Assembly (NCBI GenBank): GCA_965112155.1
Contig: OZ218098.1
Direction: 5' to 3' (one strand)
Length of the DNA: 64,000 nt
Source: Podarcis liolepis
Lineage: Eukaryota
In this document: piece after piece, positions 32,701 to 44,700 of the stretch
How the letters are laid out: each line of letters begins with the position of its first letter
How positions within the stretch are numbered: the stretch's first letter is position 1
Position numbers and translations under genes: made by a program
Notes under the pieces: generated by a model
What the model saw: the letters and a program-made list of their open reading frames with translations, nothing else
Told to the model about the DNA's origin: nothing
Database searches by the model: none

Positions 32701-35700
32701 CCAATTTGAGCTTGAAGGTCTGCGTTGTCTTGTAGACAAGCTGGAGTCTTTACCCCTACACAAGAAGTGTGTACCCACAGGCATAGAGGATGAGGACGCC
32801 CTTATTGCAGATGTTAAGGTATGTTGTAAAGTCAAGAGTTATCTTTTTTTTGTGTAGCACTTTTTCCCCAGCACCTGTGACAACCCAACAATGTTTGTTT
32901 ACATGGGCCGTGTGCAAGCCTAAGTGATTTGTTGCTGTGGCCAGTTTCTCTATTTGAGTTGATCAGCTGCTTATGCATCTGTTAATATTGTAAAGTTATC
33001 TAGCATGGCTCTGTGGGTGTGTTGGGCTCTGCCACCTCCGTAGTGTGTGAGCACAGTCATCAACTGGATTACATTTTTTGCTAGTGCTTCACTTCTGGTC
33101 CTGGGCCATACGAAGTTGTTTCATGCCATTGGGAGTTGAAGAAAGACTTGCCCTCCCAAGCTTTATCCATATGAAACAGTGCACGTTGATCAACAGTGTA
33201 ATTATATAGCCTCTTGTCGCTTTCTCTGTGTGAATCCCTGAATGGTAATGAGGTGCTTTGAAAATGGCTCTGAAAATCTCTCTTGAAACTTGGCCCTCTT
33301 GTTATGGCTTCTTTGGCTATGATTTGTTCCTGACCTTGTTTGTTTCCATTGTACCAGAAAGGTGTACACACACCTAACACACTTGCATAAACATCTCACT
33401 AAATCAAAATTTCCAAAAGTATGCACAAAAGAACTTGACAGATGAAGTGGCAGTAATCGCTATCTGTCCAAGGATTTATTTATTCTTCAAGAAAGCAGAA
33501 GGCAAGCAGTGTATCCACAGCTTCATTTTTTAATACCGTATTTTGCGCCCCATAGGACGCTCTGGCCCATAGGACGCACCTAGGTTTTTTTTTTTGGGGG
33601 GGGAAATAAAGAAAAAAAATTATTTCCCCCCCAGGTGCGGAGCTGGAAGAACCAGGTCGGGGAACAGTGGGAAGGCATGCTCTGCCTCCCCGCTGTCCCC
33701 TGAGCTTGTGGGGCTGGCAATGGGGAGAAGTGCGCTGATCCCGGGACTGCGGGCAGCTCTGCGCCACCATCCGGAGCGGGGCAGGACTTAGCGCCCCGCT
33801 CCCGGTGGCCGAGCAGAGCTGCGCTGATCCCGGGACTGCAGGCAGCTCTGCGCTGCCATCCGGAGCGGGGCGGGACTTCGCGCCCCGCTCCCGATGGCGG
33901 CGCAGAGCTGCGCTGATCCCAGGACTGCAGGCAGCTCTGCGCGGCCATCCGGAGCGGGGCGGGGCTTCACCCCTGGCTCCCAGTGGCCGCGCAGAGCTGT
34001 GCTGATCCCGGGACTGCAGGCAGCTCTGCGCCACCATCCAGAGCGGGACTTCGCGCCCCGCTCCCGATGGCCGCGCAGAGCTGCGCTGATCCCAGGACTG
34101 CAGGCAGCTCTGCGCGGCCATCCGGAGTGGGGCGGGACTTCGCGCCCGGCTCCCGGTGGCCGCGCAGAGCTGCGCTGAGCCGGGGACTGCAGGCAGCTCT
34201 GCGCAGCCATCTGGAGCGGGGCGGGACTTAGCGCCCTGCTCCCGATGGCCGCGCAGAGCTGCGCTGATCCCGGGACTGCAGGCAGCTCTGCACCGCCATC
34301 CGGAGCGGGGCGGGACTTCGCGCCCGGCTCCCGGTGGCCGCGCAGAGCTGCGCTGAGCCGACCCCTCTCGCTCTCCAGGCTTCAGCGAAAGCCTGCATTC
34401 GCCCCATAGGACGCACACACATTTCCCCTTCATTTTTGGAGGGGAAAAAGTGCGTCCTATAGGGCGAAAAATACGGTAAGTATCTTCTTCCTTTGGTCTG
34501 CTTACACACTCTTCTTTCTCCTTGCGCTTCTCTATCAGGTGTGGTGGCACTGAGGAAAAGGTGGGCTTACTTGGCCAAATGGGCTAGCAAAACAGCTTTA
34601 TCCAACTCAAAAGGCATCAGGATTGAATGCTGTTCTCTTCATTGAGCTGCTTACCTCCCTGGAGGGAATAAAAGCTGTCACTTATTCACCTTTCGTTTCA
34701 CTATAGTACATGCAATGTTGTCTGACCTGTCTGTAGAAAAAAGGTGATTAACCCCAAGGTTTCCAATGATGAAAAGGGAGCACTCAAACTTGACTGGGGT
34801 CATAAAAAGCCTAGTACAGATAGCTTGTGTGCTCACATGGCAGCACTGTTTCACTTCTGTTCACTTTGTTTCAGTTTGCTTTGTTATAGAAACCCATCAA
34901 CCTGTTTCAAAATGCCACCGGAAGTAAGATAATTGAGACCTGACTGTAAAAAAAAAAAATGCTTTCTTGATCTTGTGCATTTATGACAATTCTGTAGCAT
35001 GCTAAAGGAATGTCTAGACTAGAGCAAGAACAGTGTTGAACATTTTCATTGGCAATACTATGTACAGGCATTTCACTTCTCCATAGCTTCTATACTGAAT
35101 TCCCCTTGAATTCAGTCAATTACTAATACTTATGAGACTTGGGGCCACTTCATACATTACCCTTTGTAGGTAAGGTACCCTTTGTACTTGGGTATTTAAT
35201 TCCAAAGTATAAATACATGCAAATATCATATATAAGCAGTGCACACATGTATAAACTTAAGATCTTGCCAGCAAATTACACAGGAGCTGGACTCTGATTC
35301 TGAATGTAGATGCACTTGAACACCATTTTGAAGATAAATGCGCTTGGACACCATTGTATAGATTCACAGAATCATAAAATTGTAGAGCGGGAAGGGTCCC
35401 TGAGGGCATCTAGTTCAACCCCGTGCAATGCAGGAATCTCAACTAGATCATATATAACAGATGTCCATCCAACTTCTGCTTAAAAACCTCTAAGAAAGGA
35501 GAGCCTGTCACCTCTCATGGGAGTCTGTTCCACAGCTATTCCTATCATACATTTCATTTATGTAGGCTCTGAAATCTGCTCCAAACTGGCCTTAAGGATA
35601 AAATGGAGGGGAAAGGCATATCAAAGAATATATGTATATTTCATATTGGCATGGTGCAAGGTGATGTACCATTTGACAGCTGTGATACACAGAAGATTGC

Positions 35701-38700
35701 AGCTGTGAATGTGACTACTTTTAATGTCTGAGACTGCCACTTTTAAGACCCAGAGAGCTTGTAACCTAGTGCATATTTGCTCTAGCAATCTACTATTTGT
35801 GGTAGAAGCTTTACAAATACTTCACATCTAGCTTAACTACTTTTATTTCAGCTTTTAATGTGTAGGTGGAGGTTATAACCAGATAGTACTCAACTAGTCA
35901 GTTATGCCAGTTCACCTAGTAATACCTGTTTGACTGGTCTAGCACCTGCTTATCGTTGCTAGTTGCCGTCTCAAGTTTGCTAACACGTTGAATTCTGAAA
36001 CCTACAAAAATGTTGGGTGTGTGTGTGTGTTAGAGAGAGATCTTGCAGCATTGAAGAGGGTAATTCAGACGTCTTGCTTAAATAGAACGTTGCGGTGTCT
36101 AGGTTGGAGGAGGCGGTCTTAAGATTTCAAATAGATTGAATAGCTAGGGGGTTAATATGTTGAAACAAAGTATCTATTTCCACCTCTCTGATGAGGAACG
36201 GCATGGACACCTTGTGGGCATGTGCCTTCTTCGGAGTTAAAACGTCATTGTGGGTGTTGAGAGGGCGTCGTCGTTAAGCGGCAGTTGCTTCTGGGGGCTT
36301 AGCGCGGTAGGGGGACATGGAAAACGGGGACGTAGCTGCAGCGCACCGGGCGGGTGAAAAGCTTTCTGTGCTGTTCTCTATAAAGTCTGCCCCAGCCAGC
36401 CCTCGGGTGCTGGCCCCGGATTCTCCAATTGCAGTAGTGGTGGGGGAGGGGGGGAGAGGCTGCCTCGGCTGCCGCCACGACCAATCAGCGAGCAGCCAGC
36501 GGCTTGGCCCGGCCCCCTCCCAACTCTGCAGCAGAACGGCTTTGCCGTCCTGTTCCTGGCTTGGTTTTCTCGGTCTCCTTTCTCTTCTGCCATCTTCCGT
36601 TGCAAAGCATTGCTGGGAACTGCATGTGGGTGACGCAGCAGCATTGTTTGCGGGCGCAGGAAGCTTCCGCTGAAGGGTTCTGGAAGGAACATGCTGCTGG
36701 CGCCGGGCAGCCGCTGGTGCTGGCGGAGTTGGGATCGCGCTTCCTGAGCCGCTCGTGTGAAGGAGGAGGATTGTGCTGGAGTTAAAATTACATAGTGGGG
36801 GGAGGATCGAAACCGAAGCCCTGCAACTTGGCTGAATAGAAAACAAAGGGACTCGGAAACTTCCTCCGAGACTCTCGGCACCTTCCGTGGAACGAAGCAC
36901 GCAAGGTCAGGCAGACACGAACCTGGGGTGGGGGGTTCAGCACGGTTCCGCCGGCGGGTGGGGGAGGGAGAGAGCTGCTTCCCACGTCCATGCAGGATAG
37001 GATCACCCGGGACTCTCCTCCCACGGTTCCCCTCTGCATTTGTTTGAAGGGTACTTTCCATGGGAGGAGTTCGTAAGCTTGGAATGCAGGGACTCCCTTA
37101 TATCGGTTGTTACAGGGTCGGAGCCCGCGTCTTCCCTTCCCAAGTTGGTTTGCATTCTTTGGGTGTTTGGGAACGGCACGTTTTCTGCTTCAGATCAGTG
37201 ATAGACCTTTGGGGCGGGGTGGGGGCTACTCTTTCCTAACATCCGCGTGATTCGGTGAAGTTGGGTGTTCCCACCCCCGGAGTTTGCACGTCTGTGCAGC
37301 CACCCCTAAAGTGCCCCAGGCTGGTGCATATAGTGCGTTTCCCCTTCTGCCCCGTGAAGCATGTGTCTTCATGCCCTCAAATGCCGACCTTTCCTCATAA
37401 GTAGACGCTGTAAGGGAGAGGGTGGGGCTTGGGGACTGCACATTCTGCTGGGCTAGCCGAACAGCCACTTCCTTCCACCCACAACCTTCTCTTGAAGGGT
37501 GGAGAAGCAGCTGTAAAGCGGAGTGGATACAAACGGATAGTGCTTCTTTTTAAATTAAACCGGATTTAAGTTTTTTATTTTTTGAAAAATCCAGTTACTT
37601 TACAAACATTTAAACTGCAATCCCACACCCATTTACTTGAGAGTAGACCCCATTGCATTTTGTGGACTTGCTTTTCAGTAGGTAGATAAATATTATATTA
37701 GCATCTATCCTGAGTCAAACACATTGAGTTGCTTTCTTCCCCCCCTTACTTAAATTGAGGTGCTGTTCTATTTAAAATAATGATCCAGTTTAAAAATGTG
37801 GGGAAAAAGTCAGGCATTAATAAACATTCTGGCTGATTAATTACTAGCCCTTGATTATGGAAAGCTCTGGACATTTAATCTTAAATGCTTTTGCTTGGTG
37901 TTCTTACATGCTGGTAGAGAGCCAAACATTCTTTATCATAATGCATTTCTTCAAGCAGATACAGTTTGCAGCAGAAAAAGCATGTATGCTGCATGACCAG
38001 GTATTTTGGACTGTGTTCCCTGGGTAATAAGAAGACTTGCTCTATTTAGTTCTAGACAGATGTTTTAATTGTTTGTAGCAACCAATTAACATTGCTTATT
38101 TAGGAACCATTAATTGGACAGTTGGAAACTTCATTTTAAATTGTCGTTGTGAATTGGACACCTATCTTGGTGACTTTAAATTAATCTGTCCTACTGGAAA
38201 GCAACTTGCCTGTATAGGCAGCTTCAGATGGGAATATGAATCCCCTTTCTCTGGTAAGTGCCAGGGAGAGTGAGCCCAGCCCATGCAGTGTTCTTTGCCT
38301 CTTGGCAGCTAGAGACACTGCACTCCCTGCACACGGGGATGCCAGCAACGTAACCATAGTAACCTCAAGTAAATAAAGCACATCTGAAATGGCAGTCAAG
38401 AGTGGGTGGGTAAGGTGGACGACAGAATCAGGAACAAGGCTAAAAGAGCCAGGCGGGAGGAGATGCTGTCTCAGGATGGCAACCACATTTGCTAGAACCT
38501 GGTCATTGGTTGGTGGCATAGAAATTATCTAGCCCATGTGTGAGATAGAAAACAGTATGGCTGAGAATACTATGTTTCTGTGCTGTTTTGAGAAGTGTAA
38601 CTTCTGGGATAAACATGGACATACTGGTTGGGTGGAGGGCTTTGCTCCATTGTGGAAGAGACCACACTTAACCCAGACCTTCATTTCTGATCATGTTTCA

Positions 38701-41700
38701 TCATATTATTTTCCCTAACACAATGACTTTAAGTGTGTGAGTCATGAGGCAAGGGATCACTGGTCAAATCTAATCTTTGTTAGGTATCCTTAGGCAAACC
38801 ACATCTCTTGACCCTCATCAGTAACATGGGGACAAGAACACTGATCTGCCTTCCAGAATTGTTGTTAGGATTACTAAGAAAATGTACTGAATTATTCTGA
38901 AATACCACATAAGTATAAAAACTGATTTTTATTTTCTTAACCCTGCTATAGCTGCTGCTGGAGGAGTACGCAAACAGCGATCCCAAACTGGCACTTACTG
39001 GAATTCCTATTGTCCAGTGGCCAAAGAGGGATAAGGTAAATAATGGATCCATGACTTAACTCAAATAGCTTGGAGACTTGGTGGAGGGAACAGGAGTTCT
39101 GTGCTGGAAAGTGTTGTCAGTTGACAAGAATAGCCTCATAATTTAAACCAAAGAACCTTACACCAGTATAAGGTATAAGGGCAGTAGCAGAGTAGGTCTG
39201 GGCACAAATCACAGGTATTAAAATGAAGTGCAGTATAAATATGAGGATAAAGAAACCAGGAGGATCATGATCATGGCTTCACTTTCTAGGAGATGTGATT
39301 GCCCAAATCCAGAATTGGTTAATGATAAAACACAAGTTCATTATTTAGACATTGTGCCTCTGAGATCAAAGTCCTAATTCTTTCCATACACAATCTTTTC
39401 TGTTCCAAATTCCTGACTTTAAACTTCATGTATCTGTCATCTGGATCTCTTCTGACAGATTATTGTTTCCTTGGTTGATTATATGAGCCTCCTAATTTTT
39501 TGCTGTCTCCCCCCCCCCCCCCCACCAATGACAGCTCAAGCTTCAGGCTCGGCCAAAGTTAAGATTACCTACCATCCCGATCACCAAGCCACACACCATG
39601 AAACCCGCGCCACGGCCAGCAACTGTGAGACCTACAGTCTCTCCTATAGTGTCTGGTGCCCGCAGAAGGCGGGTGCGATGTCGTAAATGCAAGGCCTGTT
39701 TGCAAGGTGAATGTGGCATGTGCCACTACTGCAGGGATATGAAGAAGTTTGGGGGGCCTGGTCGTATGAAGCAGTCTTGTGTACTACGGCAGTGCTTGGC
39801 GGTGAGTCCTGTGGTATATTGGGTGGGGAAATTGCTTATCTCTGTGGAAGGTTCTAACAGTAGGGGATGAAACCTGTTGTATGTCTCGAAAGGCGAAAGA
39901 GCAACTAATGAGGTTGATTGAAAAGCCTTGGGAACAAATGTGGTTGGCACTGGAAAGTAGTTAATGTCCTTCAGTGCATTCTATAGAGGCAAATGGGGTT
40001 GGGGAAGTGGGATAACCATCCCCTGAAGCTTAGAAGCAAGCCTGTGGTATAACTTCCTGTTTCACTCTTCGTTTGCTTTGTAGCCCAGACTGCCTCACTC
40101 TGTTACATGTTCACTTTGTGGGGAGGTAGATAAGAATGAGGATTCGCAGGACTTTGAGAAGAAGCTAATGGAGTGCTGCATCTGCAATGAGATTGTTCAC
40201 CCAGGTTGTCTACAGGTAAGAAGGTTTACTTGACTCATTTCGATACAGGAGTGTCAGGAACAGATGCATTGCTGGAAATCACCTTTGTGTATTTTTCCTC
40301 TGCAGATGGATGGGGAAGGGCTACTGAACGATGAATTGCCCAACTGCTGGGAGTGTCCGAAGTGCTACAAGGGAGATGAGTCAGAAAAAGGCCAGGTAAG
40401 AAATGGATTTTCAAACATTGGCACATGCCTTCTGTGTTGCATGCTACTCTTGGGTAATGAAGAGGCACACTGTTTGCACCTAGCCTGTACCTAAGGCATT
40501 GGGGAGAGAAGGTTCTTTGGGTATCCTGGGTGTTTATCCTTGTGCACTTTGGGAAGGCTTAGTAGGAGCCACACGAGTGTGAGGTGAGCACTAGGAGAGC
40601 CTCTTCTGTTGAGTAAAAGAGTTCCACCTGGAAATGAGCACTGGTGACACCATACAATGTTAACTACATGATGGAGCCACTTTACAGCTTTTCCACCGCC
40701 ACCTTCTTGGCATCTACAGAGAGCTCATCAGCACATGAACTGTAACATCCTGCTGGAGAAACAGTTCCTGGAAGGGCAGCAAAATCAACTTCCATCAACC
40801 AAGCAGTGGACATGTTATCAATGGCAGAAACTGACAAGACTGCCCTGGGAGAAATACAATTGCAAGATCCTGCGTAGAGTTGTGCCTGCTTCCCCAGCAA
40901 AGAGCATCCCAGTGAAGGCAAGAAGGGGTGGGGGCAAGGGACTGGTAATCTCTTATTACCATCACAGGAGTTATTACGATCTGGCATTCTGTTAGAATAG
41001 TGCCCTGCAGCACTTCATTCCAGCCTTGGGGAACTTGGACCATGGCAGTCAGGGGCCTGTTTCTCCTACATGTTTAGTGATGGAGATATGCTAAATAAAT
41101 AAATAAGCCATAGCTTAGCAGAGTGAAGAAATTGGCTGAACCCTTCCCTTAACATCTGTTTGAAAATTGAATCTAACAGCACATTCTTGAATAGGTAAAT
41201 TAAGATGGTGATACAAATAAACACTGCATGGTTCAAGTCTAGTATAACAATTGACTCGTTCCTCACATCAGCTACTTATCTTCAAAGTTGGGTGCATGTG
41301 TGCATCTAGTGTTCTCACATGTATTCTGCAGCTTGGTGACATTTTATTAGATCTACATAACCCTTCAGCTTTCACTAAGTGACAAAGTCCAATTTCTTCA
41401 ACCTTAATGTAGCTAACGTGAGGGCAGTTTGGAACAGAGTTCATATTATAGCCAAATGAATGGATTCAAATGGTATGGGCCCAGCATGTCCTTTAAGGAA
41501 GTCATCTGGGAAGAGAGACGGTACTTCCAGTAACTTCACTTGCAGGTGCTCTGGAATGCCAATAGGATTTTCTGGGCCCAGTACACTCACTTTATGTAGG
41601 TTGGGACCTTTTGCCTACCCATAAGCTGACAAACTGCTACCTATATACATACTCTAAGTAATTGTAGAATTGCAAGCTTTCATGCAGTATATTGCTACCT

Positions 41701-44700
41701 AATTATTTTCTAGACTAAATTTTTTGTTTGACTACTAGCCGGGCATAGTTTCTACTGAGATGTCCCATTAAGTTCAATGGGACTTACTCCCAGATAAATG
41801 GCTATAAGTTTATAGCCTAGTTAGGTAAGGAAGAGGAAGGAGACTCTCCCCACACACCATTCTTTTTAATGGACCCTAATTAAATCATCCAAAAATATAC
41901 TCATATCACCTCTCTACTTTGCTGGTACCATTATTGAAAATTGTTGTGTGTGTTTTTACTGGTGGGAAGCGAGGAAAATTAAGTAAGATTGATTCAATTT
42001 ACTGTATTTTTCCATATATAAGTCCATCCTTTTTTGCTAATTGTTTTGAGTCAAAAACTGGGGGTCATCTTATACACGGATGGTGAATGCGCTCTGGCTC
42101 CGGTGGGGTGGCCTGGGATCAGGATTGGGCTCTGGTGCAGGTGGCCTGGGCTCAGGACCAATTTCTTAATTTTGTGTTAAAGAAAATGGGTTGTTTTATA
42201 CATGTCTGCATCTTACACTGTATTGGCCCGAATATAAGCTGCACCCTAATATAAGCTGCACCTTTAAAATTCGGCAGGGGGGGGGCGGAGAAAAAAAGAC
42301 AATATCCGAATATAAGCCACTCCCTTAAAATTCCACAGGCACTCACACCCATTCCATTTTACTGTATGTCTGTTTCAATAGCGATATCGTAAAAGCCAAT
42401 TTTTGTAAGGTCACATACTTATGCCGCACTTTAACTTTTCACGGTCGGAATTTGGAAACAAAAGGGCAGCATATATTCAGGCCAATATGGTACATGGAAA
42501 AATACGGTACTAACAAAGGGCCAAAGACAGCCTTTAACTACCTAACCACAACATCACCACTATCTCGTCTCATGTAACCTTGTTGCAATAATCTGTCCCT
42601 TCAAAAACACTACACTGTTCACTTTTTTTTACTGATACAGAAAACAAAGTAGTTCTTCTGTCATTTTGGTTTTAGGAGACCAGTGTGGGGAGGAACTCCG
42701 TCATGATTAAGACAGGTGTCCTATTTTTAATTGCCTGGGAGTGAACCCCATTGAACTCGGTGGAGTTTACTTTTGAGTCATCATCTGTAGAATTGTACAG
42801 TAATATGGCTACCCTGATATATTGCTTTCAGAAAACTTTGCTTTGAGACAGTAGGTGCCATACATAGAGCATACTTCCTCCAAGGACTTGAGACTCCCTG
42901 GGGATGATGATCATTTCCATTCATGTCAATGCAGGCTCCCATTGGCTTTCAACAATTATTTTAGGAATTCAGCTTAACTATAAATGCCAGAAAATCTGTG
43001 TTCATATGTAGTGACAAGAATGTGTTTGCATTACATATGTAGACCCTGATGTCAATAGATTGTGTGCAGCTGCTGCATTTTATGTAAATTTTGCTTCAAA
43101 GGGAAAAGGATAAGCCTGAGGTTTACAAAGGGATACAACTTGGAAAGAGCCGCAATTTTAATAATGCATTAAGCATTTCTTTCAGACATCTTCTGCAGTG
43201 GTAGAGTAACATTGTCTTTGATCTGTATCACTGTAAACTTTGTTTCCTGTCCCTCTGGTGTAGCTAATCCATAAACTAAAGTACAACAATGGTATCATCC
43301 TAAAGAGTTTTCTTAAGAGAAAAGTGGCATGTAGGTTAGCCCACTTTGTGTTCTTCCTTGGCTTCTGCAAGTTCATTTGTCTACAGGAGTGGTGAAAATT
43401 TACAATTCTTGTATCTGATCTTTTAACATAGCAACTAGATCAGGCATATGATCCATATGTTTTTGAACATCCATGAACCCCAGTCAGCGTGGCCAGTGGT
43501 CAAGGATGCTGGGAACTGTAGTCAAAATACCAGCAGGACACTGTGCTGACTAGACAAAGGGGAATTAATGGGTGGCATTCAACTAAGTTTTACTCAGAAT
43601 AGACTTGGTGAAATTAACGGACCTGACTTAGTCATGTTCATTAATTTCAAAGTTAGGTTCGTTAATTTCAATATATCTGTTCAGGGTGAAACTTAGCTGA
43701 ATTACTCTCCACCCCAATGTTTCTAACCTAAAATCTCTGAAGTAGGAAAATTAGTAAAGCCATTGCCACCACTATTTTAGAAGAGCTTATTTACGTTAGG
43801 ACTGTAATAGTGTTTATTAACTAAGAAAATAAAGACATGCTAAATTTATTTTAAAGTTTTGTCTTGCTTTCCTTTAAATCAACCCCATAAATATTTTTAT
43901 CAGCCCTAAAGATACTGAAGCACTGTTCATTTTTTGTTTGGTTGGTTTTGTTTTTAAGCTTGCCTTCTAAATGCCAATAAAGCTGGATGCACTGTTCTCT
44001 TTGTATCGTTTTTTGGAGATGAGATTGAGAGCAGGGCTGTCCATGTTCATCTCAGTAGTGGGTCTGGGGAAGCTGGCTTCTCTGTGAAGTATACTTAAGC
44101 GACCCAAGCTACTTAGAGCTTTATAGGCCAAAACGAGCACTTCACATTGTGCCCAGAAGCAAATGGAGAGCAAGCACAGTTTTAAATTCTGGTGTCCTGC
44201 ACTTTAATAGAGTTGGCTATTGGAAAAATGGAATGACAGCAAAGAGTGTAAATTTCACTTCCTTCACTGACACCAGTGTGAAAGTAAAAGAGCTTATAAT
44301 AATGAGCATCACCCACCCTGATGCATTTTACTTTTAAATGGAATGCATTCTACCATATAAATTTCAGAATTTAACTCCCTCCTGTTTTGGTCTTTACAAT
44401 GGTAACTTGTTGCCACTCGCTTTGCAGAAGCGGAAAATGGATGATGGCGATGATGACACAGTCCAAGCCAAAGTTCTGCGTCCTTTGCGAAGCTGTGAGG
44501 AACCTTTGACTCCACCACCACATTCGCCTACCCCAATGCTGCAGCTAATACATGACCCTGTGTCACCACGAAGCATAGTGACACGGTCCTCTCCGGGGGC
44601 CGGTCCTAGTGACCATCACGGGCCCAGCCGGGATGAACGCTTTAAGAGACGCCAGCTACTTCGGCTGCAAGGCACAGAGCGCACAGTGGTGCGGGAAAAA

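What the first reader, a model, noticed from the sequence alone, without database searches (positions are those of the whole stretch)
33732..34360. Transposon-borne tandem array of seven ~70-nt near-perfect hairpins in a KDM2A intron
Seen: each 89-bp unit has a 31-nt arm (GCAGCTCTGCGCGGCCATCCGGAGCGGGGCG), an 8-nt loop (GGACTTCG/GGACTTAG), a complementary 31-nt arm (CGCCCCGCTCCCGGTGGCCGCGCAGAGCTGC) and a ~19-nt linker. Unit 4 has a short deletion in the left arm. Unit 2 carries changes in both arms that keep pairing (GCTGCCAT/ATGGCGGC). The array sits between the TIRs of a mariner-type element, so it is a mobile cassette. Inference: stem and spacing resemble a polycistronic pri-miRNA or endo-siRNA source, an ADAR substrate, or a cruciform array. 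The very high GC content may hinder Drosha/Dicer processing.
Basis: partly seen in the sequence, partly recalled or inferred. Interest (0 to 1): 0.7.

Follow-up and report, generated by a model that had tools for sequence, protein, structure and literature searches.

The report
Hairpin array inside a lizard mini-transposon
The seven hairpins are the repeated middle of a small jumping gene that has hundreds of copies in this (likely lizard) genome and is missing from the same spot in two related organisms; its stems collect mutations as fast as its unpaired parts, so it is likely selfish DNA kept hairpin-shaped by DNA-copying errors rather than a small-RNA gene cluster.

Summary
The array is real: seven 89-bp units (unit 4: 84 bp) at 33731-34356, each a 31-bp hairpin, in a KDM2A intron. 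It is the interior of a 941-bp non-autonomous transposon (33536-34476; CCGTA ends, TA duplication) of the pogo/Passer family, not mariner proper. At least 276 copies of this subfamily exist, with 0-21 such units; about 2,200 exact end matches mark a larger family, most of whose sampled members carry other GC-rich hairpins. A full-length partner with a 425-aa DD35D transposase shares both ends and has its own hairpin array. Two related organisms (~2% diverged) have the empty site with one TA. Across 257 units, stems mutate like unpaired positions (1.8% vs 1.8%), CpG decay shows no strand bias, and the window's hairpins are no better paired than other copies. Unit 2's 'compensation' is a U-G wobble. 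Rare mirrored multi-base changes fit template switching. Small RNAs and editing could not be tested. Verdict: a new member of a known kind (tandem-repeat-bearing MITE, like Xenopus miDNA4). The scan noted similar kinds of element in other genomes, not this family.

The parts
33534..33535 (.). TA target-site duplication, left copy
   Evidence: Sequence; the empty site in two related organisms holds one TA
33536..34476 (-). Whole 941-bp non-autonomous Passer-type DNA transposon (MITE). The strand is given by homology to the full-length element L141, whose transposase reads antisense to KDM2A in this orientation
   Evidence: ends shared with L141 at 90% over 169 nt and 82% over about 112 nt, measured with the complete copy L033
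33536..33562 (+). Left terminal inverted repeat (about 27 bp, begins CCGTA)
   Evidence: the Passer TIR motif is CCGTA/CCGTA in the supplements of PMC7386202 and PMC9976928
33563..33577 (+). Subterminal repeat of the TIR core; likely a transposase-binding motif (inferred)
   Evidence: Repeat family D3; analogy with Lemi1/Emigrant, PMC1636448 abstract
33578..33730 (.). Non-repeated left interior of the MITE, with T/G runs and two short hairpins
33731..34356 (.). Tandem array: 7 units of 89 bp (unit 4: 84 bp), each a 31-bp GC-rich palindrome with an 8-nt loop; CpG o/e about 0.8
33842..33911 (+). Unit 2 hairpin, the best paired (29 Watson-Crick, 1 U-G, 1 mismatch)
34020..34084 (+). Unit 4 hairpin with a 5-nt deletion in the left arm
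34357..34361 (.). Junction of a 99-nt deletion (3-nt microhomology, read from the printed junction) that removed the family's usual terminal, different hairpin unit
   Evidence: against L033; the terminal unit ends 53 of 57 loci and 26 of 27 complete copies of the unbiased sample
34400..34414 (+). Subterminal repeat of the TIR core at the right end; forms an inverted repeat with the right TIR
34450..34476 (-). Right terminal inverted repeat; 2,204 exact matches of TA plus this end in the genome
34477..34478 (.). TA target-site duplication, right copy
32819..38951 (+). Host intron of KDM2A (after the exon ending at the equivalent of residue 494, before the short exon near 38952; the 3' end is approximate)

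Best explanation
This is one young copy of a non-autonomous pogo/Passer-type DNA transposon whose interior is a variable-number array of palindromic 89-bp units; it was likely moved by the transposase of full-length Passer elements in the same genome, and its hairpins are likely by-products of DNA copying with no selected RNA function at this site. Step 1 (shown): the element landed in a TA of a KDM2A intron and duplicated it; relatives have the empty site. Step 2 (inferred): a Passer DD35D transposase acted in trans on the shared ends. Step 3 (number change shown, cause inferred): unit number changes by slippage or unequal repair, probably favoured by the stem-loops and by gap repair after excision; deletions at short homologies also occur. 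Step 4 (inferred from mirrored multi-base changes): now and then one arm is recopied from the other by template switching, which keeps or lengthens the palindrome without selection. Step 5 (decay shown, methylation inferred): after insertion the copies decay neutrally, CpG sites four to five times faster than others, as expected for DNA methylated in the germ line.
For: TA/TA at 50 of 54 complete copies and 27 of 27 complete copies in an unbiased sample. 276 exact matches to the left-end/first-unit junction and 291 to the unit core, controls 0. Empty site: a 3,521-nt contig of organism D runs from the left flank (32830-33535, record 1702-995) into the right flank (from 34477, record 996 downward), and a 668-nt contig of organism A does the same (1-450, then 449-616); organism C has the insertion with 0 differences in the flanks. 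Helper: L141 is 3.94 kb, TA-flanked, with a 425-aa ORF and a 12.4 x 119-bp hairpin array upstream of it; its 97%-identical relative L126 has DDE_1, HTH_Tnp_Tc5 and a weak BrkDBD match and 35 residues between the last two D. Neutral decay: non-CpG changes 156/8,738 in stems vs 52/2,827 unpaired (p 0.87); stem CpG C>T 123/1,542 vs G>A 96/1,028 (p 0.25) (first set alone p 0.71 and 0.27). Window units average 26.5 Watson-Crick pairs vs 26.3 in 206 other units. Template-switch signs: 20 of 22 units of a 90-bp class have a palindrome of 40 bp or more, against 0 of 216 units of 89 bp beyond 31; one unit type in L021 has a mirrored G-C to T-A change and perfectly matched inner arms. The mechanism is described in PMC8794818 and PMC5453318 (abstracts).
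Against: Arms of the same unit are slightly better matched than shuffled arms (26.33 vs 26.19 +/- 0.04, 0 of 1,000); without L021 this falls to 26.27 vs 26.20 (68 of 1,000). Long hairpins recur in 18 of 25 elements picked only by their end, in several different sequences, against none in 75 shuffles, and in the full-length L141. Such recurrence could mean selection on the founding copies, which a test on inserted copies cannot see. No full-length element with this very 89-bp unit was found among the 23 stretches compared, which hold 20 places with transposase DNA. Units are related by descent, so the p-values overstate independence. The direction of the 89/90-bp change is inferred only from the 89-type linker standing before the first unit. 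Template switching and trans-mobilisation were not observed directly.
Confidence: 0.8

Rival explanations
1. The hairpin modules help the transposon itself: they would raise its copying rate (for example by stalling and restarting gap repair, or by forming cruciforms near the ends) or act as a GC-rich promoter or enhancer for the transposase gene, so they are selected among founding copies though not after insertion.
For: Hairpins in 18 of 25 end-selected elements, tandem duplications in 11 of 25, none in 75 shuffles. Related modules begin with the same motif but differ in blocks mirrored on both arms. Full-length L141 keeps a 98%-uniform hairpin array just inside the end upstream of its ORF. 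Each 89-bp unit holds a GC-box-like stretch (label recalled, not tested).
Against: Copies with 0 or 1 unit make up 11 of 27 complete copies in the unbiased sample, so arrays are not needed. Most full-length copies have no such array, or a different one (L124, L126 and L142 carry 112-114-bp repeats). Template switching alone can give mirrored blocks.
Confidence: 0.1
2. The array is a source of small RNAs or a double-stranded-RNA (ADAR) substrate in the KDM2A pre-mRNA, with targets in the hundreds of other copies, like the Made1-derived miR-548 family.
For: The stems are 31 bp and about 70 nt long, stable on their own, and form with probability 0.84-1.0 under local folding. They lie in an intron of a gene, so they would be transcribed with it. 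MITE-derived miRNAs exist (PMC1784062 abstract).
Against: Absent in two close relatives. No selection on pairing for either strand. All 48 Rfam matches are below the gathering score. Arms are 74-81% GC with 6-10 A per hairpin, and linkers are only 19 nt; unconstrained folding pairs units with each other and dissolves 4 of 7 hairpins. The Made1 hairpin is made of the TIRs, not of internal repeats.
Confidence: 0.06
3. The insertion matters as DNA in cis: a methylated, CpG-dense block 1.7 kb upstream of an intronic CpG island could tune the promoter of the short, demethylase-less KDM2A isoform in this species.
For: A CpG island-like stretch lies at about 36200-37400 in the same intron (o/e 0.6-0.8). 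In mammals the short isoform starts in intron 12 (PMC7000146 passages).
Against: That this island is the short-isoform promoter is inferred. There are no expression or methylation data. The copy shows ordinary decay and has a deletion.
Confidence: 0.04

Closest known systems
miDNA4 of Xenopus tropicalis (Tc1/mariner MITE bearing a satellite monomer; Scalvenzi and Pollet 2014, seen only through passages of PMC9659126, PMC12628747 and PMC12054243)
   Same: Non-autonomous ITm-group element with one or a variable number of internal tandem units; most copies have few units (61% of miDNA4 have one; here 10 of 27 have one standard unit); changes at microhomologies.
   Different: miDNA4 is AT-rich (63% AT) and its monomer is not described as a hairpin in the passages seen. 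Here the unit is about 75% GC and almost wholly palindromic, and a candidate helper with its own array is present.
DTC84 / pearl-type tandem-repeat-containing MITEs (PMC3879986, abstract and Discussion read); Xstir/Xmix of Xenopus (through reviews only)
   Same: Flanks act as a cassette for a variable array; each unit holds a palindrome proposed to drive length change; a distinct variant holds a fixed place in the array.
   Different: DTC84 has an AA target duplication, about 160-bp units, a short palindrome near the unit end and a microsatellite, and may be Helitron-related. This element has TA, CCGTA ends and a 31-45-bp palindrome filling the unit.
Passer (PS) family of the pogo superfamily (PMC7386202, PMC9976928; passages and supplement rows)
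   Same: CCGTA/CCGTA ends of 24-29 bp in the squamate rows, TA/TA, 1.6-4.0 kb, 400-500-aa DD35D transposase with Brk and HTH domains. The MITE's right end differs at 2 of 27 bases from the listed Anolis PasserC TIR. The first 60 bases of L128 match the listed Podarcis muralis element letter for letter (compared by eye).
   Different: The passages and rows seen list autonomous elements; I saw no description of these non-autonomous hairpin-array derivatives.
Made1 / hsa-mir-548 MITE-derived microRNAs (PMC1784062, abstract)
   Same: MITE sequence that folds into a pre-miRNA-sized hairpin and has many genomic copies.
   Different: In Made1 the two TIRs form the hairpin and mature miRNAs are documented. 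Here the hairpins are internal, tandem and very GC-rich, and no small RNA is shown.

Membership tests
MITE / non-autonomous TIR transposon | Terminal inverted repeats and a target-site duplication | tested here: met
   About 27-bp TIRs; TA/TA in 50 of 54 and 27 of 27 complete copies; single TA at the empty site in two organisms
MITE / non-autonomous TIR transposon | No transposase, high copy number, dispersed | tested here: met
   941 bp; only open frames that run through the GC repeat; at least 276 copies on many contigs
MITE / non-autonomous TIR transposon | Small and uniform length (about 100-800 bp) | tested here: inconclusive
   Lengths run from 416 to 2,255 bp because of the array; most are 500-800 bp
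Passer (pogo superfamily) | TIR under 30 bp with CCGTA ends and TA duplication | tested here: met
   against the supplement rows
Passer (pogo superfamily) | Autonomous partner with a 400-500-aa DD35D transposase, BrkDBD/HTH_Tnp_Tc5 plus DDE_1 | tested here: met
   L126 (428 aa): DDE_1 E 3.9e-30, HTH_Tnp_Tc5 E 1.4e-16, BrkDBD E 8.5e-5 but 22.8 bits, under the 23.4 cut-off; spacing 35; L141 (425 aa) shares the MITE's ends
Passer (pogo superfamily) | Placement in the Passer clade on a transposase tree | not tested
   No tree was built; the assignment rests on features and on the match of L128's end to the published lacertid element
Passer (pogo superfamily) | Mobilisation of this MITE by that transposase | not testable with these tools
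   Needs an excision or transposition assay
mariner (DD34D) in the strict sense | DD34D catalytic spacing (definition recalled) | tested here: not met
   The partner is DD35D with a DDE_1 domain
Tandem-repeat-containing MITE | Internal array with variable unit number between conserved flanks | tested here: met
   0 to 21 standard units plus a terminal variant
microRNA cluster | Stable hairpin of about 60-70 nt | tested here: met
microRNA cluster | Conserved hairpin with selection on pairing | tested here: not met
   Absent in relatives; stems mutate like unpaired sites; no Rfam match at threshold
microRNA cluster | Precisely processed mature and star reads | not testable with these tools
   No small-RNA run was among the 24 listed
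ADAR substrate | A-to-G differences between RNA and DNA of the same individual | tested here: inconclusive
   The RNA runs laid come from an organism without this insertion; A>G rows over the element appear in DNA-like contigs as well

The most novel reading that the evidence does not exclude
Lacertid Passer transposons are palindrome factories: template switching during repair of their excision gaps keeps creating, lengthening and re-matching 20-45-bp GC-rich hairpins, and hairpin-bearing founders out-copy others. The family would then be a natural, thousand-copy record of how long RNA-like stems with 'compensatory' changes arise with no RNA function, and it would seed hundreds of introns with ready-made pre-miRNA-sized hairpins that differ between sister species.
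Probability: 0.15. Interest if true: 0.55.

Novelty: new member of a known kind. Interest (0 to 1): 0.22.

Why it matters
At this locus it is ordinary: one of hundreds of copies, absent in close relatives and decaying. The family has modest value. It links a tandem-repeat-bearing MITE to a candidate helper that has its own array. It is a clear warning that perfect-looking stems and two-sided changes in a repeat do not show RNA function. Its many copies would let someone count template-switch events per arm and per generation of copying. The presence/absence of the insertion and its unit number are usable markers among closely related lizards.

Tried and rejected
Rfam: 48 matches at E up to 1, all under the gathering score, generic GC-rich hairpin hits on both strands; rejected as family evidence. 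Coding role: the open frames through the array have no stops only because the repeat is GC-rich; not pursued. First look for a helper: the 30 best DDE_1 loci held no CCGTA end and most had ends of another, Tigger-like type (label recalled); the helper came from lower-ranked hits. A BrkDBD search found 2 other places, not analysed beyond ends and ORFs. RNA: no RNA holder of this stretch was listed; this is no evidence either way. Two RNA runs of organism A, about 12% of each read, showed no reads on most of the intron flanks, depth 0-8 over a unit, and several hundred over the end shared by all subfamilies; since that organism lacks the insertion, this says nothing about the locus. Higher-order structure: the window's units alternate G/A at one column, but distance by lag within arrays shows no general dimer (9.4, 9.3, 9.6, 9.1 for lags 1-4). 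The pairwise comparison of hairpin types across subfamilies had only 3 types present in 2 or more loci, giving 3, 3 and 0 two-sided Watson-Crick changes: too few to count on. Length polymorphism of this array within the species could not be read from the contigs. A look-up of earlier notes by sequence gave only an unrelated hit, and by place two unrelated retroelement notes.

Full report
Observation. Tandem Repeats Finder gives period 89, 7.1 copies at 33731-34356. Each unit holds a 31-nt arm, an 8-nt loop, the complementary arm and a 19-nt linker; unit 4 has lost 5 nt of its left arm. Each hairpin folds far better than its shuffles (z -7.3 to -11.0, 0 of 200). The six full-length units have 24-29 Watson-Crick pairs of 31. 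The host gene is KDM2A on the + strand: the exon ending at 32818 and the CXXC exon hit KDM2A chains best, and the next exon begins near 38952.

The element. The array lies in a 941-bp element, 33536-34476, with inverted ends beginning CCGTA and TA on both sides. A search of the own genome gave 3,544 first-look candidates, 40 scored. Exact patterns give firmer lower bounds: 2,204 matches to TA plus the right end, 276 to the junction between the left interior and the first unit, and 291 to the unit core, controls 0. So the 89-bp subfamily has a few hundred copies within a family of thousands. TA flanks both ends in 50 of 54 complete copies and in 27 of 27 complete copies among the first 30 junction hits (3 lacked a findable right end). 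In that unbiased set the number of standard units was 0 (1 copy), 1 (10), 2 (7), 3 (2), 4 (4), 5 (1), 7 (1, the window) and 8 (1); the longest seen anywhere was 21 plus a terminal unit (L021). Nearly all copies end in a different hairpin unit (53 of 57 loci); the window copy lost it in a 99-nt deletion.

Age. Contigs of organism C match both flanks with 0 differences and run into the element. One contig of organism D (3,521 nt) and one of organism A (668 nt) run from the left flank straight into the right flank, sharing just the two letters TA. Their intron flanks differ from the window by about 2% (11 differences in 706 nt for D). This proves the target duplication and shows that the insertion is not shared by these relatives. 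It may be younger than their split or an older polymorphism. All three organisms hold other copies of the family.

Family and helper. Lower-ranked DDE_1 hits led to elements with CCGTA ends and a 425-428-aa ORF; 49 candidates, 40 scored, about 13 near full length. The protein has DDE_1, HTH_Tnp_Tc5 and a sub-threshold BrkDBD match and DD35D spacing. These are the features given for Passer in PMC7386202 and PMC9976928 (passages). Their supplements list CCGTA/CCGTA ends and TA/TA for squamate Passers; the MITE's right end differs at 2 of 27 bases from the Anolis row, and the first 60 bases of L128 equal the Podarcis muralis row (compared by eye). The genome is therefore likely that of a lacertid lizard (inference). 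The best helper is L141 (G000:C5, 3.94 kb, both ends, intact ORF): it shares 169 nt at 90% and about 112 nt at 82% with the ends of a complete MITE copy, and it carries its own 12.4 x 119-bp hairpin array upstream of the ORF. None of the 23 stretches compared held the 89-bp unit. No tree was built.

Is pairing selected? From 57 distinct loci I took 337 units: 55 terminal-type and 282 standard. Of the 220 standard units of 89 nt, 3 last units of loci without a terminal unit and 5 with more than 14 differences were dropped, leaving 212; the 62 units of other lengths were left out of the column counts. With the common variant columns and their neighbours set aside, non-CpG changes were 114/6,572 in stems and 43/2,332 in loop and linker (p 0.71). 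CpG C>T, which leaves a U-G pair in the + strand RNA, was 108/1,272; CpG G>A, which breaks that pair, was 64/636 (p 0.27). Adding 45 units from 26 new loci gave 156/8,738 vs 52/2,827 (p 0.87) and 123/1,542 vs 96/1,028 (p 0.25); dropping L021 or identical units changed nothing. Of 73 two-sided changes, 19 were Watson-Crick, 24 wobble on one strand and 30 mismatches; most of the 19 are two CpG decays, and the only transversion pair (4 units) is one event copied within L021. The window's units are no better paired than the other 206 (26.5 vs 26.3). Unit 2's change makes a U-G pair at a column that is a C.C mismatch in 89 and G-C in 70 of 212 units. Against my reading: arms of one unit match slightly better than shuffled arms (0 of 1,000 permutations; 68 of 1,000 without L021), and units share descent, so the tests are not fully independent.

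Why hairpins at all? Two signs point to arm-to-arm copying. In a 90-bp unit class the right arm and linker are the reverse complement of the left side further out, so the palindrome reaches 40 bp or more in 20 of 22 units, while none of 216 units of 89 bp passes 31. One unit type in L021 has perfectly matched inner arms, including a new mirrored base and a narrowed loop. Template switching in replication is described as making and repairing such stems in one step (PMC8794818, PMC5453318; abstracts and opening text). The habit is family-wide: of 25 distinct elements picked only by their end (30 loci, 1 without a second end, 4 duplicates removed), 18 hold long hairpins and 11 hold tandem repeats of 40 bp or more, in several unrelated-looking sequences, with none in 75 shuffles. 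This recurrence is the one feature that neutral decay after insertion does not speak to: selection among founding copies remains possible (rival 1).

RNA readings. No Rfam family reaches its threshold. Local folding gives seven hairpins (probability 0.84-1.0), but unconstrained folding keeps only units 1, 3 and 5 and pairs the rest with each other. No small-RNA run was listed. The RNA runs laid come from an organism without the insertion and are uninformative for the locus. MITE-derived miRNAs exist (PMC1784062, abstract), so leaky processing is possible but unsupported.

Known kinds. MITEs with variable internal arrays are known: miDNA4 and Xstir of Xenopus (seen only through passages of PMC9659126, PMC12628747 and PMC12054243) and DTC84 of the clam (PMC3879986, abstract and Discussion), whose units hold a palindrome proposed to drive length change. 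Subterminal repeats like those here are bound by a pogo-like transposase in Arabidopsis (PMC1636448, abstract). Searches for a description of this lizard family found none (more general searches; listings only). Repbase, Dfam, subscription journals and bioRxiv supplements were not searchable, so it may already be named. Earlier notes of this scan hold similar kinds of element in other genomes, not this family; they did not change my reading.

Verdict. A real, well-formed palindromic minisatellite riding in a Passer-derived MITE; a new member of a known kind; most likely neutral at this site. Interest 0.22.

Noticed in passing
window 36200-37400: CpG island-like stretch (GC about 0.6, CpG o/e 0.6-0.8) in the same KDM2A intron, 1.7 kb downstream of the transposon; a candidate for the promoter of the short KDM2A isoform, which starts in intron 12 in mammals (PMC7000146 passages).
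   Followed up: partly
L141:75-4014 (G000:C5:1571675-1575614): Full-length Passer-type element with both ends, TA flanks, an intact 425-aa DD35D ORF and a 12.4 x 119-bp double-hairpin array 98% alike between units, related to the interior of other MITE subfamilies.
   Followed up: partly
L021 (G000:C7:79412613 onward): 2,255-bp copy with 22 units arranged as a higher-order repeat (blocks of 4 and 10 units), showing expansion in place; an early step toward a satellite.
   Followed up: partly
L040, L059, L050, L024, L053: 90-bp unit class in which the whole unit is a palindrome, so the array is mirror-symmetric at two centres; L053 has 128- and 138-bp units with partial re-duplications.
   Followed up: partly
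window 41999-42510: A second, more decayed element of about 510 bp with CCGTA-type ends and TA flanks, holding a 33-bp and a 17-bp tandem repeat.
   Followed up: no
G000, DDE_1 hits: Dozens of intact 575-646-aa pogo-type ORFs with near-identical scores and ends of another (Tigger-like, label recalled) type: a young, possibly active family.
   Followed up: no
L124 and L126: Two Passer copies 99.7% identical in the ORF that differ in the number of a 112-bp upstream repeat (6.2 vs 2.1 copies): array length changes fast in full-length elements too.
   Followed up: no
window 33731-34356, runs X15, X17, X19: Summed contig depth over a unit relative to the flank is far higher in organism C than in organism A. 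The tool warns that this is no copy number, but it hints at uneven amplification of the subfamily among relatives.
   Followed up: no
L100 and L107: Other members of the family hold stems of about 71 bp with 5-8 mismatches.
   Followed up: no
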